Assembly (NCBI GenBank): GCA_019058445.1 | Contig: JAHPZA010000009.1 | Location: 518,310-582,309 of the forward strand | DNA: 64,000 nt | Source of the DNA: Promethearchaeota archaeon | Lineage (GTDB): Archaea; Asgardarchaeota; Lokiarchaeia; Sigyniarchaeales; SOKP01 | Direction of reading: 5' to 3' | In this document: in pieces, positions 26,699 through 55,535 of the stretch | Numbering within the stretch: the stretch's first letter is position 1 | Layout of the letters: every line of letters begins with the position of its first letter | Notes under the pieces: generated by a model | Seen by the model: only the letters and a program-made list of their open reading frames with translations | What the model was told of the DNA's origin: nothing | Database searches by the model: none | Program-made: the position numbers and the translations under genes

Positions 26699-26714
26699 TA
26701 TATAAAGAAAAAAA
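26699..26714 (-). promoter_or_regulatory. T-rich element plus TATA (island motif) TTTTTTTCTTTATATA
   Basis: 45 nt upstream of the 26654 start, in a divergent intergenic region. Confidence 0.65.
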
Positions 26715-26794
26715 TTGATATCATAGATTAAATTTTCATTGAAAAGGAAGCCTAAGTTCATGAGCAGAATCTATTCTGGGAAAACTTCCCCAAA

Positions 26795-26809
26795 TTTTTT
26801 CTTTATATA
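26795..26809 (+). promoter_or_regulatory. Island promoter motif TTTTTTCTTTATATA
   Basis: 45 nt upstream of ATG 26855. Confidence 0.65.
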
Positions 26810-26854
26810 AATTTAGGGTAATGATAAGCTAATAGCTTTCCCTCGGCAAGAGAA

Positions 26855-27271
26855 ATGAGCATAAGTAAATATAAACAATCCAGTGATAAATCAGCAAAAA
26901 TCACCTTTCACCCAGATAATAAACGTACTCTTGCCAGCAATGAGTTTCAAAAAAGGAAATTTCGGTTCATAAATGAATTATCGTGTCTGCTATTTGCACA
27001 TAAAAAAGATAGGGATATTTCAGTCATTATATCGAAATTGATTATATTTACGCTTTCTATTCATGAACACCACTTTTTAGATAAGGCATATACATCAGCG
27101 ATGGAACAAATGTCTAGCGTCTATGAGCCCCACGAATATCTTCGCATCCTTAAGAAAATTCATATACTTCTTTTTCAAACTAGATGTTTATCTGAAGAGG
27201 AGCGGCTCCGGTTTTATCGTTTAGAGCGGTTTTGCATAAAATGCTATTTAAAAAAGTCTCAATTGACATAA
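26855..27271 (+). CDS. Hypothetical helical protein
   Basis: 138-aa ORF with the island promoter motif. Confidence 0.55.
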   Translation: MSISKYKQSSDKSAKITFHPDNKRTLASNEFQKRKFRFINELSCLLFAHKKDRDISVIISKLIIFTLSIHEHHFLDKAYTSAMEQMSSVYEPHEYLRILKKIHILLFQTRCLSEEERLRFYRLERFCIKCYLKKSQLT

Positions 27272-27819
27272 TCACCGTTTTTCCTCTTTAAAAGTAGCGT
27301 AAAATAATCATTTGGCAAGGCAATAAGCATGCCATTATGAATGAATCTGCTCAGTAATAAAGGAATCTCGCTGTCAGGAATATGATATTCCGAACTCATT
27401 ATATGAATCATATATTGTGGAAACTCCTTGAACTTGGAAAAAAGATCTAGTAGTAATGTTTTAAACTCCTTAACATACGCACTATCACCGTGATCAACTC
27501 CTAAAAGCGTTTTAGAAAAATTGCTTGGTTTAGCAGGATGTGTCCTAACTCGAAATTCATTATTGCTCCTTAAATCGGGAGTATGACCCGTTTCTTTTAT
27601 TGCTAAGGTATGTTGCTTATCCTTTACCGCATTAATTGTATTATTCAATCCATATATAACTTCAGTGGTGTCCGGTAATTTAGCTAAGTGATGAATCCGC
27701 ATACAATTGAGGCATTTTTTAGTTTTTTGAGTAGTTTTTACGTAGAGCGTTCTACCGCACTTCACACATGCAAAAATATAATAGGGAGTTTTATCCTTTT
27801 TCCACTTATTAGTTTCCAA
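27259..27819 (-). CDS. DUF1922-like Zn-ribbon protein with C-terminal winged-helix-like domain
   Basis: YYIFACVKCGRTLYVKTTQKTKKCLNC; C-terminal 'EIPLLLSRFIHNGMLI..PND' wHTH wing; GAGGT SD. Confidence 0.6.
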   Translation of the reverse strand: METNKWKKDKTPYYIFACVKCGRTLYVKTTQKTKKCLNCMRIHHLAKLPDTTEVIYGLNNTINAVKDKQHTLAIKETGHTPDLRSNNEFRVRTHPAKPSNFSKTLLGVDHGDSAYVKEFKTLLLDLFSKFKEFPQYMIHIMSSEYHIPDSEIPLLLSRFIHNGMLIALPNDYFTLLLKRKNGDYVN

Positions 27820-54029: not shown

Positions 54030-54041
54030 AAAGTAGAAGAA

Positions 54042-55166
54042 TTATTTTTTGGAATCCATTGGGAAGCTAACATTTAATTTTTTCTTTTGCCGCATAAATA
54101 TGACATACACGGCGCTTGCCGTACCTCCCGCAAAAATAATCGCGGCTAATGTTCCCTCTATGGGGAGAGAAATAGCATTACTAGAAAGGTCTTCCAAAAG
54201 ATCAATAGATTCTGAATCACTGTCTGAAGGTTTTGTATTGTTGTCATCTAGTATATCACTTATTTGAAATTCTTCAACTACTGCATACGCAATGTTCACA
54301 TGCTCTGGATGTGGTTTGGCTGGCTGTTCAGAAGTATCGGTCACTAAGTCGATATCAATTCGGATCCTGTACTCACCTCCTTCAGACGTACCGAAATTAA
54401 ACATAGAAATATCCTCAATATCAGCAAGTGGATCATCATTATAGATGATGAATTCGATAGGGGCAGATTCTTCAGGAAGATATTCAATCACATAATCCAT
54501 TAGTATAATATTGCTTTCCTTAATAGAGATAGCCGATACCCGACCGATATAAAATATATATGAAATATCCGACTCTAAATCTATTTTATGGCTAAAACCT
54601 TGATCATCGCTGAAATTGGTAACTTCAAAATAGACCAGATCATCATGATATTGAGAGTCGATTTTATCGTGAAGACATAAAGGACCTTGCTCGATTCTAA
54701 TATACAGATTAAAATTCACACTGGATTCGGAATAAAATTGAAATCTATGGGTACCTGACATCTCCGCACCAAAAGGAATCTCAAAATATCTCCCTTGCTC
54801 TGGATTATAATACATTTCGCTTTCGAAAAGGTTATATTGCTTATCGTCCGGATCAAATACCTTTATACGCATTGTTGAAACGTTATGAGGAGTAACCAAC
54901 TCGATGTAAATATAGTACATAAATTCTTTTTCTAAATAATGGGATCTCTCCGTTGTATTATCAGGAGCTAAAAAGGTAAATACTTTATCAGTGAGGATAA
55001 GTTCGCTCGCATCTTTTAATTGTTCGTTAGTGGAAGTTTCAGTAGTTAAATTCTTGGGATGTGATGGTGAATATTCCTTGGAAGTGTTTAATAGGCCGCT
55101 GGTTATTACCAACAATATTCCACAGACTAGCAACACCATCAGGTAATATCTGTTTTTAATAACCAT
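54042..55166 (-). CDS. Exported beta-rich protein with C-terminal TM anchor
   Basis: Signal/TM at N-terminus, two repeated beta domains ('PFGAEMSGTH' / 'NFGTSEGGEY'), C-terminal TM with KKK tail. Confidence 0.65.
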   Translation of the reverse strand: MVIKNRYYLMVLLVCGILLVITSGLLNTSKEYSPSHPKNLTTETSTNEQLKDASELILTDKVFTFLAPDNTTERSHYLEKEFMYYIYIELVTPHNVSTMRIKVFDPDDKQYNLFESEMYYNPEQGRYFEIPFGAEMSGTHRFQFYSESSVNFNLYIRIEQGPLCLHDKIDSQYHDDLVYFEVTNFSDDQGFSHKIDLESDISYIFYIGRVSAISIKESNIILMDYVIEYLPEESAPIEFIIYNDDPLADIEDISMFNFGTSEGGEYRIRIDIDLVTDTSEQPAKPHPEHVNIAYAVVEEFQISDILDDNNTKPSDSDSESIDLLEDLSSNAISLPIEGTLAAIIFAGGTASAVYVIFMRQKKKLNVSFPMDSKK

Positions 55167-55473
55167 ACACCTTCAATTCTTTAAATTCTTGAATAAGCTC
55201 ATTGATATTATTGCATGAATCCCTCTCCACGCAAGAAAAACACGGACCATCCACCCAAAAATAAGCTTTTTGGTCATTTTTTTCCACTATTAATATGGGT
55301 AAGTCCCTCATGGGACACACTAATGCTGAATTGCTAATAGTCCCTCGTTTAGGCAATGCATATGAGAGCCCGCAAATTTCACATTTAGCAAATCGTTTAT
55401 AATTGTTAGTTTTGAATATGGATATGGAACAACTACAATTAGGACATATGCCGATTTCTTCTAGTTTTCTCAT
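55156..55473 (-). CDS. Zn-ribbon protein resembling the C-terminal ribbons of archaeal type IA topoisomerase
   Basis: IGICPNC...KRFAKC..C..SYALPKRG.I......CP...LPI...PCFSC. Confidence 0.65.
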   Translation of the reverse strand: MRKLEEIGICPNCSCSISIFKTNNYKRFAKCEICGLSYALPKRGTISNSALVCPMRDLPILIVEKNDQKAYFWVDGPCFSCVERDSCNNINELIQEFKELKVYGY

Positions 55474-55520
55474 AATATTTTTATCGTAAATTTGGGTTTA
55501 ATCCTAAATTCCTCTCGAAG

Positions 55521-55535
55521 TATTTAAATAAAAAA
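55521..55535 (-). promoter_or_regulatory. Island promoter motif TTTTTTATTTAAATA
   Basis: 47 nt upstream of ATG 55473; last clear instance at the right end of the island. Confidence 0.55.

What the first reader, a model, noticed from the sequence alone, without database searches (positions are those of the whole stretch)
26699..55535. Island-specific promoter motif TTTTTT(C/A)TTTAWAWA: a T-rich element replaces the purine-rich BRE
About 15 copies, each oriented with and mostly 20-55 nt upstream of a gene start: 26699(-), 26795(+), 30620(-), 32643(+), 33184(+), 33886(-), 41855(-), 42220(+), 43067(+), 46526(-), 46574(+), 47724(+), 48924(+), 51432(+), 55521(-). The exact 15-mer TTTTTTCTTTATATA occurs five times. 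Three back-to-back pairs sit in divergent intergenic regions (26.7, 41.9-42.2, 46.5 kb), where terminator T-tracts are not expected. Flanking housekeeping genes instead show A-rich sequence before the TATA (AAAAATTTATATA about 12932; AAAACCCTTTATAA about 62971; AAAATTTTTATATA about 10337). Inference: a sigma-factor-like promoter class that the housekeeping TFB reads poorly.
Basis: seen in the sequence. Interest (0 to 1): 0.9.

Follow-up and report, generated by a model that had tools for sequence, protein, structure and literature searches.

The report
Island promoter class with own TFB
About fourteen genes or operons in a 31-kb recombination-gene island of a Loki-type Asgard archaeon share one unusual promoter, a run of T's fused to the TATA box where archaea normally have a purine-rich element, and the island encodes a very divergent transcription factor B that probably reads it, much as an alternative sigma factor does in bacteria.

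Summary
TTTTTT(C/A)TTTAWAWA is real. It is about 25-fold denser in the island than in the rest of the 4.6-Mb genome. All 14 strong copies point at a gene start 14-98 nt downstream.

It is a core promoter: a TATA box with T6(C/A) in the BRE position. In 100 related loci from other Lokiarchaeia (Promethearchaeota) MAGs the same element stands before the same operon-first gene families at fixed spacing. An initiator-like A lies 22 nt after the TATA.

The motif clusters wherever a divergent TFB paralog is encoded. This paralog keeps the Zn ribbon and two cyclin folds but has a rewritten, family-invariant BRE-reading helix. Its own promoter has a purine-rich BRE and lacks the T-rich element.

"Island-specific" is only partly right. 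Satellite loci in the same genome carry paralogous genes behind the same motif, including a second alt-TFB with a RadA paralog.

That the alt-TFB reads the T-tract is inferred from linkage, co-occurrence and the helix. It has not been shown. One relative keeps the cluster and motifs but has no detectable alt-TFB.

No RNA data exist for this organism.

The scan met the same system earlier in other genomes (e1-5425579, e1-5425572), with the same reading.

The parts
25900..56860 (.). Genomic island, about 31 kb. It is absent from the syntenic site of a same-genus genome.
   Evidence: G083 contig C183 aligns to window 19959-25893 and 56860-64000 with no more than 300 bp between them. No terminal repeats longer than 11 nt were found.
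26699..26713 (-). T6C-TATA promoter for gene 26031-26654(-)
   Evidence: Exact 15-mer; 56 nt before the ATG; one half of a divergent pair.
26795..26809 (+). T6C-TATA promoter for gene 26855-27271(+)
   Evidence: Exact 15-mer; 45 nt before the ATG. A paralog at C6:437338 also has the motif.
30620..30634 (-). Promoter for the 897-aa alpha-alpha-toroid (prenyltransferase-like) gene 27874-30567(-) and the DUF1922 gene 27259-27819(-)
   Evidence: Exact 15-mer; 52 nt before the ATG. The motif is conserved before 14 of 16 orthologs and at 40 sites in 39 of the 80 loci.
30847..32178 (-). Divergent TFB paralog (alt-TFB), 443 aa: Zn ribbon, two cyclin folds, rewritten HTH recognition helix, about 100-aa C-terminal extension
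   Evidence: Pfam hits fall below the gathering cut-offs. The AF2 core has pLDDT above 90. Foldseek matches TFIIB/TFB, including 1d3u_B at TM 0.77 and rmsd 3.4. Helix comparison.
32198..32225 (-). The alt-TFB gene's own promoter: purine-rich stretch, TTTAAAAA, then a conserved ACTCC box. It has no T-tract.
   Evidence: Window sequence. The same architecture was anchored in 40 of 77 orthologous upstream regions, with 65-100% purine at -10 to -1. None of 20 orthologs has the T-rich motif within 130 nt.
32642..32656 (+). Promoter for the Zn-ribbon protein gene 32678-33088(+), probably leaderless
   Evidence: 21 nt before the ATG. 10 of 13 orthologs have the motif at 21-22 nt; 16 of 16 sites lie at 20-22 nt.
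33185..33199 (+). Promoter for the 73-aa hydrophobic protein gene 33221-33442(+)
   Evidence: 21 nt before the ATG; 5 of 5 orthologs have the motif at 21-24 nt.
33886..33900 (-). Promoter for gene 33494-33859(-)
   Evidence: 26 nt before the GTG. Orthologs and the C7 paralog also carry the motif.
41855..41869 (-). Promoter for the operon 41815 to 34431(-): HhH protein, two unknowns, and a 1314-aa HerA/VirB4-like protein
   Evidence: Exact 15-mer; one half of a divergent pair; 39-57 nt before the candidate starts.
42220..42234 (+). Promoter for the membrane protein gene 42256-43035(+), probably leaderless
   Evidence: 21 nt before the ATG. 11 of 16 orthologs have the motif (mostly at 21-22 nt, a few at 24-52 nt); 25 of 25 loci carry it.
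43067..43081 (+). Promoter for gene 43114-43725(+)
   Evidence: 32 nt before the ATG; orthologs carry the motif.
46526..46540 (-). Promoter for 45884-46504(-) and the Hef-like helicase 43744-45897(-)
   Evidence: 21 nt before the ATG. Orthologs have a slightly weaker variant at 21-25 nt.
46574..46588 (+). Promoter for 46669-46989(+) and the RadB/KaiC-like ATPase 46998-47705(+)
   Evidence: Exact 15-mer and the best PWM score, 24.2 bits; one half of a divergent pair 48 bp from 46526.
47724..47738 (+). Promoter for the XPG/FEN-like nuclease (ATG at 47753 or 47762, ending at 48856)
   Evidence: Pfam XPG_I at 1e-23. 3 of 3 orthologs have the motif at 21-25 nt.
48924..48938 (+). Promoter for the roadblock-like gene 48989-49540, the Arf/MglA-like GTPase 49563-50204 and 50217-51422
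   Evidence: 50 nt before the ATG. The 86%-identical paralog at C9:393809 has the motif 48 nt upstream.
51432..51469 (+). Weak or ambiguous promoter region before the Hel308-like helicase 51609-54029(+)
   Evidence: The 51432 copy has 2 mismatches and scores below 14 bits. A TTTTTTATTTAAAGG variant lies at 51455. Hel308 orthologs in L048/L049 have the motif 74 nt upstream.
55521..55535 (-). Promoter for the 105-aa Topo-I-type Zn-ribbon protein 55156-55473(-) and 54042-55166(-)
   Evidence: 47 nt before the ATG. 6 of 6 orthologs have the motif at 46-49 nt; 19 of 19 loci carry it. Protein resemblance.

Best explanation
The 15-mer is a composite archaeal core promoter. TTTAWATA is the TATA box. 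The abutting T6(C/A) occupies about -36 to -30, exactly where TFB's C-terminal helix-turn-helix normally reads a purine-rich BRE. Transcription starts at an A about 22 nt after the TATA, so several genes are leaderless.

The promoter class marks a lineage-conserved regulon of Lokiarchaeia. Its members include:
- a RadA paralog (encoded at the second cluster in this genome)
- a RadB-like ATPase
- Hef-like and Hel308-like helicases
- an XPG/FEN-like nuclease
- small Zn-ribbon proteins
- membrane and envelope proteins
- here also a HerA/VirB4-like operon and an MglA/roadblock pair.

Inferred mechanism: the cluster's divergent TFB paralog is made from an ordinary purine-BRE promoter that carries a conserved operator-like box. 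With TBP it binds the T-rich BRE through its rewritten recognition helix and recruits RNA polymerase through its intact Zn ribbon. This would switch the whole set on as a unit, like an alternative sigma factor.

Shown in silico: the promoter class, its geometry, its conservation, and its linkage to the alt-TFB.
For: Enrichment and orientation in the window and genome.

Phylogenetic footprint:
- In 20 loci from other genera the motif precedes operon-first orthologs at fixed spacing: i27874 14/16 at 42-86 nt, i32678 10/13 at 21-22 nt, i42256 11/16 mostly at 21-22 nt (range to 52), i55156 6/6 at 46-49 nt, FEN 3/3.
- It is missing before internal operon genes.
- In 80 further loci (1.26 Mb) there are 305 hits, against 17 in the reversed-sequence control. 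Of these, 260 have an ORF start 12-110 nt downstream, and they fall into about a dozen protein families.

Promoter geometry:
- Flanks that were not used to build the PWM show A at 74-77% exactly 22 nt after the TATA, preceded by T. This holds also in the 68 sites with no start codon there.
- There is a purine (94%) 6 nt after the TATA.

Linkage to the alt-TFB:
- Paralogs of the alt-TFB in the same genome (C9:389346, the C6:683975 pseudogene, the C1:92388 fragment) coincide with secondary motif clusters.
- In relatives, 11-12 of the 26-35 strict copies in each genome lie on the alt-TFB contig.
- Genomes without the cluster have control-level, dispersed counts.
- Co-occurrence with the adjacent 897-aa gene across 101 genomes: both 60, alt-TFB only 2, 897-aa gene only 7, neither 32.

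The factor itself:
- It has the TFB fold with both cyclin repeats and four invariant ribbon cysteines.
- Canonical paralogs read GVTEVT(L/I)RxRYK where this family reads (I/V)(R/K)MST(I/V)(Q/H/N)xQV, which is nearly invariant.
- The HTH of cyclin repeat 2 is the BRE reader (PMC4581349).

Internal contrasts:
- The alt-TFB gene itself lacks the T-rich motif (0/20) and has a purine-rich BRE.
- Housekeeping paralogs of RadA, Hef, FEN and Hel308 score no more than 4.7 bits.
Against: - There is no transcript, TSS or binding evidence. No RNA run holds this DNA.
- G078 (99% complete) keeps the cluster with six motif copies of 14.7-21.7 bits, but the alt-TFB is cleanly missing from its usual slot and was not found elsewhere, even with the family profile. 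The gene does move as a 1.5-kb cassette in another MAG, so it may sit on an unbinned contig.
- The genomes compared are kin, so the counts overstate independence.
- Helix variants (Q versus H) shift the motif only slightly.
- The B-reader region is short and modelled with low confidence, so competence for initiation is not assured.
Confidence: 0.6

Rival explanations
1. The promoter class and regulon are real, but another protein reads the T6(C/A) element. This could be a dedicated activator or repressor overlapping the core promoter, as Orc1-2 does at the Sulfolobales DNA-damage element, or one of the cluster's small Zn-ribbon proteins. The divergent TFB would then have another role, such as co-activator, decoy or repressor.
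For: - G078 keeps the motifs without a detectable alt-TFB.
- In Sulfolobales, a T-rich hexamer (ANTTTC) in DNA-damage promoters is bound by Orc1-2, and TFB3 acts only as an activator (PMC6061795, PMC6101591).
- The cluster encodes conserved small Zn-ribbon proteins with a DNA-binding look.
Against: - The element abuts the TATA box in strict register, at the place where a TFB must sit, so a second protein there would have to share the site.
- The strict ANTTTC pattern is not met, because position 1 of the run is T in about 100% of sites.
- No Orc1/Cdc6 domain was found among the island proteins.
- The alt-TFB keeps a well-folded HTH with an invariant, altered recognition helix, which points to selection for DNA reading.
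Confidence: 0.22
2. The T-tract is a passive DNA feature. It could be a deliberately poor BRE, or a rigid A-tract that excludes histones or orients TBP. These promoters would then be used by the housekeeping TFBs and kept alike by co-regulation or gene duplication, with no dedicated reader.
For: - Oligo(dA:dT) tracts have special structure.
- The host's own BRE signal is weak (about 45% A), so TFB-BRE reading may matter little in this lineage.
Against: - A merely weak BRE needs no conserved sequence. Here T is 91-100% at five positions and C/A is fixed at the junction, across genera with only 40-50% protein identity.
- The element is confined to one gene cluster and its paralogs, rather than being general to strong or weak promoters.
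Confidence: 0.1
3. These are not promoters. They are oligo-T terminators next to chance TATA-like words in AT-rich spacers.
For: Archaeal terminators are T-tracts. Some copies (43067, 47724, 48924) also lie after an upstream gene on the same strand.
Against: - Three pairs lie in divergent spacers with no gene end nearby.
- All 14 point at a start codon.
- Spacing to the ATG is fixed at 21 nt in several gene families across genera.
- An initiator signal stands at a fixed distance.
- The reversed-sequence control gives 17 hits against 305.
Confidence: 0.03

Closest known systems
Sulfolobales DNA-damage regulon (TFB3 plus Orc1-2 and the ANTTTC element; Ups pili, Ced DNA importer) - PMC6101591, PMC6061795
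   Same: - A TFB paralog is tied to a set of DNA-exchange and recombination genes that share a T-rich promoter-proximal element.
- A VirB4/HerA-type ATPase and membrane proteins are among the targets.
- It works as a two-step cascade: factor first, targets later.
   Different: - As I recall, TFB3 is a short TFB without a DNA-reading core. The shared motif is read by Orc1-2, not by TFB3.
- Here the paralog is full length, with both cyclin folds and an altered HTH.
- Here the shared element sits in the BRE position itself and does not fit ANTTTC.
- No Orc1-2-like gene is in the cluster.
- The lineage is Asgard, not Thermoproteota.
Sulfolobus acidocaldarius TFB2 cell-cycle regulon (bioRxiv 10.64898/2026.09.06.749720)
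   Same: A full-length TFB paralog occupies and drives a defined promoter set, a sigma-like use of TFB.
   Different: That study reports TATA boxes and BREs that look similar for TFB1 and TFB2 promoters, differing in spacing. Here the BRE-position sequence is inverted in character (T-tract instead of purines), and the recognition helix is rewritten.
Multiple TFB/TBP paralogs of haloarchaea (Halobacterium TfbA-G; recalled from Facciotti 2007 and Turkarslan 2011, not re-read here)
   Same: Expanded TFB families partition the genome into regulons. This genome also has about 14 TFB genes and 3 TBPs.
   Different: Halobacterial TFBs are close paralogs with subtle promoter preferences. This family falls below Pfam's TFIIB threshold, carries a C-terminal extension, and is physically linked to its regulon.
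Bacterial alternative and phage-encoded sigma factors
   Same: A dedicated initiation-factor paralog is paired with its own upstream promoter element. Sigma region 4 and the -35 element are held to be homologous to TFB HTH2 and the BRE (PMC4581349). The factor gene is expressed from a housekeeping-type promoter.
   Different: The protein framework differs (TBP plus TFB plus an archaeal RNAP). Nothing has been shown biochemically.
Canonical archaeal BRE/TATA core promoter
   Same: An 8-bp TATA box centred about 26 nt before the start, a Py-Pu initiator, and frequent leaderless mRNAs.
   Different: The 7 bp upstream of the TATA are T6(C/A) instead of purine-rich.

Membership tests
Archaeal core promoter (TATA box plus upstream TFB-contact element) | AT-rich 8-bp TATA box of TTTAWATA type | tested here: met
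   Positions 7-14 of the motif read TTTA(A/T)A(T/A)A in all 14 sites and in the 91 + 305 sites of relatives.
Archaeal core promoter (TATA box plus upstream TFB-contact element) | Transcription start at a fixed distance, about 22-25 nt after the TATA, at a Py-Pu step | tested here: inconclusive
   Sequence proxy only. There is A at 74-77% 22 nt after the TATA, preceded by T, and an ATG exactly 21-22 nt after the TATA in several gene families. No RNA data were available for TSS mapping.
Archaeal core promoter (TATA box plus upstream TFB-contact element) | Purine-rich BRE directly upstream of the TATA | tested here: not met
   The seven positions upstream are T 77-100% (six positions), then C/A. 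The alt-TFB gene's own promoter shows the purine-rich form. This is why I call it a variant promoter class.
TFB/TFIIB family (for the protein at 30847-32178) | N-terminal Zn ribbon | tested here: met
   C49, C52, C66 and C69 are invariant in 32 sequences. The model has a three-strand ribbon at 57-74. The Pfam Zn_Ribbon_TF hit scores 20.3 bits, below the 29-bit cut-off.
TFB/TFIIB family (for the protein at 30847-32178) | Two cyclin-like repeats in the TFB core arrangement | tested here: met
   The Foldseek top hits are all TFIIB/TFB. The P. woesei TFBc-TBP-DNA chain 1d3u_B matches at TM 0.77 and rmsd 3.4 over 204 columns. The sequence profile matches repeat 1 only (E = 2e-5).
TFB/TFIIB family (for the protein at 30847-32178) | Passes the curated family thresholds (Pfam TFIIB, NCBIfam PRK00423) | tested here: not met
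   Pfam 18.2 bits against 23.6; NCBIfam 18 bits against 384. It is a very divergent member.
TFB/TFIIB family (for the protein at 30847-32178) | Canonical BRE-reading residues in the HTH recognition helix | tested here: not met
   The VTEVT(I/L)R motif is replaced by (R/K)MST(I/V)(Q/H/N). The positions aligned with human V283 and R286 (numbering recalled from memory) are Ser and Gln/His/Asn.
TFB/TFIIB family (for the protein at 30847-32178) | Binds TBP-DNA and recruits RNAP | not testable with these tools
   This needs EMSA or in vitro transcription.
Intrinsic terminator T-tract | Lies at gene 3' ends, in the orientation of the upstream gene | tested here: not met
   Six copies form back-to-back pairs in divergent spacers. 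All copies are oriented with a downstream start.
Sulfolobales DNA-damage element (ANTTTC, read by Orc1-2) | Fits the 5'-ANTTTC-3' hexamer and has an Orc1-2-type regulator | tested here: not met
   The position that should be A is T in about 100% of sites. Pfam finds no Orc1/Cdc6 domain among the island proteins. The comparison is with PMC6061795.
Integrated mobile element (virus, plasmid or ICE) | Integrase, att repeats, or viral or conjugative hallmark genes | tested here: not met
   Pfam shows no integrase. PHROGs gives no hits for 10 unknown proteins. There are no terminal repeats longer than 11 nt. However, the block is absent from the syntenic site of a congener, so it has moved or been lost there.

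The most novel reading that the evidence does not exclude
Lokiarchaeia carry a natural orthogonal initiation pair: a TFB paralog whose rewritten helix-turn-helix reads a pyrimidine-tract BRE that housekeeping TFBs ignore. [quoted passage not shown] The switch would turn on a duplicate homologous-recombination toolkit together with membrane DNA-handling proteins, that is, an inducible DNA-exchange or repair programme.
Probability: 0.45. Interest if true: 0.85.

Novelty: new variant of a known kind. Interest (0 to 1): 0.75.

Why it matters
Alternative TFBs are known, but none has a clearly different BRE. That absence has kept open the question of whether archaeal TFB paralogs can act as promoter-specificity factors in the way sigma factors do.

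Here the DNA element, the altered reading helix and the regulon can all be read from sequence, and all are conserved across a family of Asgard archaea. The question therefore becomes directly testable with three recombinant proteins and two oligonucleotides.

The motif also picks out, without annotation, a conserved gene set. It includes a RadA paralog, RadB-like, Hef-like, Hel308-like and FEN-like proteins, Zn-ribbon proteins and envelope proteins. This set is likely a recombination or DNA-exchange programme in the lineage nearest to eukaryotes.

A compact orthogonal promoter-factor pair would also be a useful part for future archaeal genetics.

Tried and rejected
- De novo EM motif discovery on 2809 host upstream regions, from random or TATA seeds, drifted to uninformative AT-rich or GC-rich profiles. 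It gave no host promoter model.
- Alignment to start codons shows only a Shine-Dalgarno signal, so most host mRNAs are leadered.
- tRNA promoters as a host standard: ARAGORN finds only 23 mostly intron-bearing or dubious tRNAs, too few to use.
- RNA evidence: no RNA holder is listed for the island. Only sediment and soil DNA metagenomes hold it.
- Complex prediction of host TBP with the alt-TFB core gave no verdict (score 0.00). I do not use it either way.
- PHROGs search of 10 unknown island proteins gave nothing.
- A search for att-like terminal repeats at the island ends found only 11-mers.
- The ACTCC box of the alt-TFB promoter, used as a genome-wide regulon marker, gave 45 matches against 46 in the reversed control, so it is not enriched.
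- Covariation between recognition-helix variants (Gln versus His) and the motif shows only a modest shift (C at motif position 5: 14% versus 31%), confounded by phylogeny.
- The literature search found no description of Asgard promoters or of this TFB family.

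
Full report
OBSERVATION

The exact 15-mer TTTTTTCTTTATATA occurs five times in the window and never in 100 dinucleotide shuffles. The degenerate pattern with one mismatch allowed gives 19 matches against 3.4 expected, and 15 of them lie between 26.7 and 55.5 kb.

The window is contig C9:518310-582309 of a 4.6-Mb, 31% G+C, 10-contig genome. Genome-wide, five of the seven exact copies and nine of the 44 strict degenerate copies lie in the island.

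A PWM built from the 14 good sites finds 99 places at 16 bits or more in the genome. Fourteen are in the island (4.7 per 10 kb) and 85 are elsewhere (0.19 per 10 kb); Poisson p = 1.6e-15.

All 14 sites are intergenic and point at a start codon 14-98 nt away. Five sit exactly 21 nt before an ATG.

The three back-to-back pairs (26699/26795, 41855/42220, 46526/46574) lie between divergent genes. The listed site at 51432 is weak, and a better variant lies at 51455.

IS IT SPECIAL IN THIS GENOME?

Outside the island and contig C7 there are 3329 intergenic TTTAWAWA words.
- 219 have a T-rich upstream heptad, and only 23% of these lie 15-90 nt before a same-strand start. The base rate is 27%.
- 190 have an A-rich upstream heptad, and 43% of these do (Fisher p = 1.3e-5).
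- In the island, 13 of 20 are T-rich and 12 of those face a start (p = 3e-11).

Host TATA-like words placed 20-25 nt before an ATG show about 45% A and no T-tract upstream.

Housekeeping paralogs of the island's recombination genes (RadA, RadB-like, Hef, FEN, Hel308) score at most 4.7 bits within 140 nt upstream. The main RadA has an A-rich stretch before TTTATATA.

So the T-tract does replace what is otherwise an A/purine-leaning position.

WHAT THE ISLAND IS

Pfam finds the following:
- a weak TFIIB-like protein (30847-32178)
- an 897-aa alpha-alpha-toroid protein
- a DUF1922 Zn-ribbon protein
- an HhH protein leading an operon that ends in a 1314-aa protein
- Hef-like and Hel308-like SF2 helicases
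- a RadB/KaiC-like ATPase
- an XPG/FEN-like nuclease
- an Arf/MglA-like GTPase.

No integrase or viral family was detected.

A same-genus genome (G083) has the left and right flanks (window up to 25893 and from 56860) joined with no more than 300 bp between them. It carries its own alt-TFB and 897-aa gene on other contigs. The 31-kb block is therefore a true island at this site. I found no terminal repeats.

THE MOTIF IS NOT STRICTLY ISLAND-SPECIFIC

The TFB-like protein has paralogs at C9:389346-390683 (61% identity), at C6:683975-685267 (with stop codons), and a fragment at C1:92388. Secondary PWM clusters lie beside each of them, and on contig C7.

Paralogs of island genes elsewhere carry the motif at the same spacing:
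- the roadblock paralog at C9:393809
- i32678 paralogs at C7:46882 and C4:234432
- i33494 and i33221 paralogs on C7
- the i26855 paralog at C6:437338.

Next to the second alt-TFB, a RadA paralog (Rad51 domain, E = 3e-72, with HhH domains) has two motif copies upstream.

CONSERVATION

The alt-TFB family was found in 60 of 81 genomes of the same family, in 1 of 14 genomes of a sister family, and in none of 5 others in the order. A scan of 185,579 species representatives gave 102 relatives. All are Asgard MAGs, mostly labelled Promethearchaeota/Promethearchaeia, and they include Loki_b31 and Loki_b32.

In 20 loci of 20 kb around orthologs, the gene set is syntenic and there are 2.3 PWM hits per 10 kb. 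In 80 further loci (1.26 Mb) there are 305 hits, against 17 in the reversed-sequence control.

The motif precedes operon-first orthologs at family-specific, conserved spacing, and it is absent before internal genes and before the alt-TFB gene itself (0/20).

Of the 305 hits, 260 have an ORF start 12-110 nt downstream. These fall into about a dozen families, led by:
- the 897-aa protein (40 sites in 39 loci)
- an HhH-Rad51-HhH RadA paralog (35 sites in 33 loci)
- the i42256 membrane protein (25 of 25 loci, median spacing 21 nt)
- a 78-aa protein
- the Topo-I-type Zn-ribbon protein i55156
- i32678 (16 of 16 sites at 20-22 nt).

In five relatives, 11-12 of the 26-35 strict copies per genome lie on the alt-TFB contig in three of them, 4 of 14 in a fourth, and 1 of 26 in the fifth.

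Four genomes without the cluster have counts equal to the reversed-pattern control, and their copies are dispersed. The one apparent exception, G044, has a cluster contig that ends exactly where the alt-TFB gene would follow.

PROMOTER GEOMETRY

In 91 sites from other genomes, the flanks (which the PWM does not see) show three signals:
- a pyrimidine 3 nt after the TATA
- a purine (94%) 6 nt after the TATA
- an A (77%) 22 nt after the last TATA base, preceded by T/C.

The A is still at 74% in the 68 sites that have no start codon at that place. This puts the TATA centre about 26 nt before the putative start and the T6(C/A) at about -36 to -30, which is the BRE position. It is a sequence proxy for a TSS, not a measurement.

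THE CANDIDATE READER

The AF2 model, built on a 32-sequence alignment, has a core (residues 126-340) with pLDDT above 90. Foldseek returns only TFIIB/TFB/Brf at the top. These include the P. woesei TFBc chain of the TBP-BRE-TATA complex at TM 0.77 and rmsd 3.4.

The four ribbon cysteines are invariant.

Twelve canonical TFBs of this genome read GVTEVT(L/I)RxRYK in the last helix of repeat 2. This family reads (I/V)(R/K)MST(I/V)(Q/H/N)xQV, with M304, S305, Q310 and V311 invariant. That helix is the BRE reader in TFB/TFIIB (PMC4581349). The residues aligned with human V283 and R286, whose numbering I recall from memory, become Ser and Gln/His/Asn.

A C-terminal extension of about 100 aa ending in a conserved KGPP is modelled poorly.

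THE FACTOR'S OWN PROMOTER

In 40 of 77 orthologous upstream regions (34 distinct sequences), a purine-rich decamer (typically GAGGAAAAGG; 65-100% purine per position, T at most 32%) precedes TTTAAAA. A conserved (A/C)AACTCC(T/C)NCC box follows 3-4 nt later. The window copy fits this pattern at 32198-32225, minus strand.

The factor gene therefore has the ordinary kind of promoter plus an operator-like box, while its neighbours have the T-rich kind. This is what a two-step, sigma-like cascade predicts.

WEAK POINTS

- No RNA run holds this DNA.
- The TBP/alt-TFB complex prediction gave no verdict.
- G078 (99% complete) keeps the cluster and six motif copies, but the alt-TFB is cleanly absent between its usual neighbours and was not found with the family profile.
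- In MAG 9R3_44 the alt-TFB gene with its promoter exists as four 1.5-kb copies, 90-95% identical, in different contexts. The gene can therefore relocate, and in G078 it may sit on an unbinned contig. The case still stands as evidence against strict dependence.
- Gln and His variants of the helix go with only a small change in the motif.

COMPARISON

The nearest functional analogue is the Sulfolobales UV/DNA-damage response. There, TFB3 activates the Ups pili, the Ced importer and a VirB4/HerA homolog (PMC6101591), and Orc1-2 binds an ANTTTC element in those promoters (PMC6061795). In the present case the paralog is full length, the shared element sits in the BRE position, it does not fit ANTTTC, and no Orc1-like gene is in the island.

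For Sulfolobus TFB2, the reported BREs look like those of TFB1.

I therefore file this as a new variant of the known kind "alternative-TFB regulon". The promoter class and regulon are well supported.

The same system was reported earlier by this scan in other genomes. My tests here were run independently on this window and on the relatives.

Noticed in passing
window 32198-32225 (-); L055-L134 upstream of the alt-TFB genes: The alt-TFB gene's promoter carries a conserved (A/C)AACTCC(T/C)NCC box 3-4 nt after its TATA, a typical place for an archaeal repressor. The box is not enriched elsewhere in this genome (45 matches against 46 in the control).
   Followed up: partly
L064, L068, L076, L078 (MAG 9R3_44 = G050): There are four copies of the alt-TFB gene plus about 350 bp of promoter, 90-95% identical at the DNA level. 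The similarity ends at the borders of a 1.5-1.9-kb unit, and the copies sit in different gene contexts. This suggests cassette-like duplication or movement of the factor gene alone.
   Followed up: partly
G000:C9:389346-404000 (outside the window): A second alt-TFB (61% identity) sits beside a RadA paralog with HhH domains, a roadblock/GTPase pair 76-86% identical to the island's, and an MFS transporter. Each of these (for the pair, its lead gene) is preceded by the T-rich promoter.
   Followed up: partly
G000:C7 (84-kb contig, 29% G+C): This contig holds seven or eight motif copies and paralogs of three small island proteins. It also holds a 508-aa TFB fused to an Arf/MglA-like GTPase (45191-46717), another TFB, and a cluster of intron-bearing tRNA genes at 34.3-34.9 kb. 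It may be an extrachromosomal or mobile element.
   Followed up: no
L051 (G078:C31): The cluster is present with its motifs, but the alt-TFB gene is missing from its usual slot: only 330 bp lie between the i42256 and i27874 orthologs. No family member was found elsewhere in that 99%-complete assembly.
   Followed up: yes
window 25900 and 56860: The island is absent from the syntenic locus of the same-genus genome G083. No att-like repeats flank it. A first-stage note places an intron-bearing tRNA-Thr about 500 bp beyond the right end (57347-57450); ARAGORN missed it.
   Followed up: partly
window 32425-32460 (-): A degenerate copy of the motif (TTTTTTCTTAAATGA, one T of the TATA missing) lies about 265 nt upstream of the alt-TFB start, before a possible 67-aa ORF (32239-32442). 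It could give weak positive feedback. It is not conserved in orthologs.
   Followed up: no
whole genome G000: The genome has about 14 TFB-family genes, 3 TBP genes, and 2 RadA-type genes plus several RadB-like genes. That is an unusually large initiation-factor repertoire for an archaeon.
   Followed up: partly
window 55156-55473 (-): This 105-aa protein has two Cys4 ribbons resembling the C-terminal zinc ribbons of topoisomerase I. It is 56-75% identical across genera, making it the best-conserved protein of the cluster. Its family is restricted to Promethearchaeota.
   Followed up: partly
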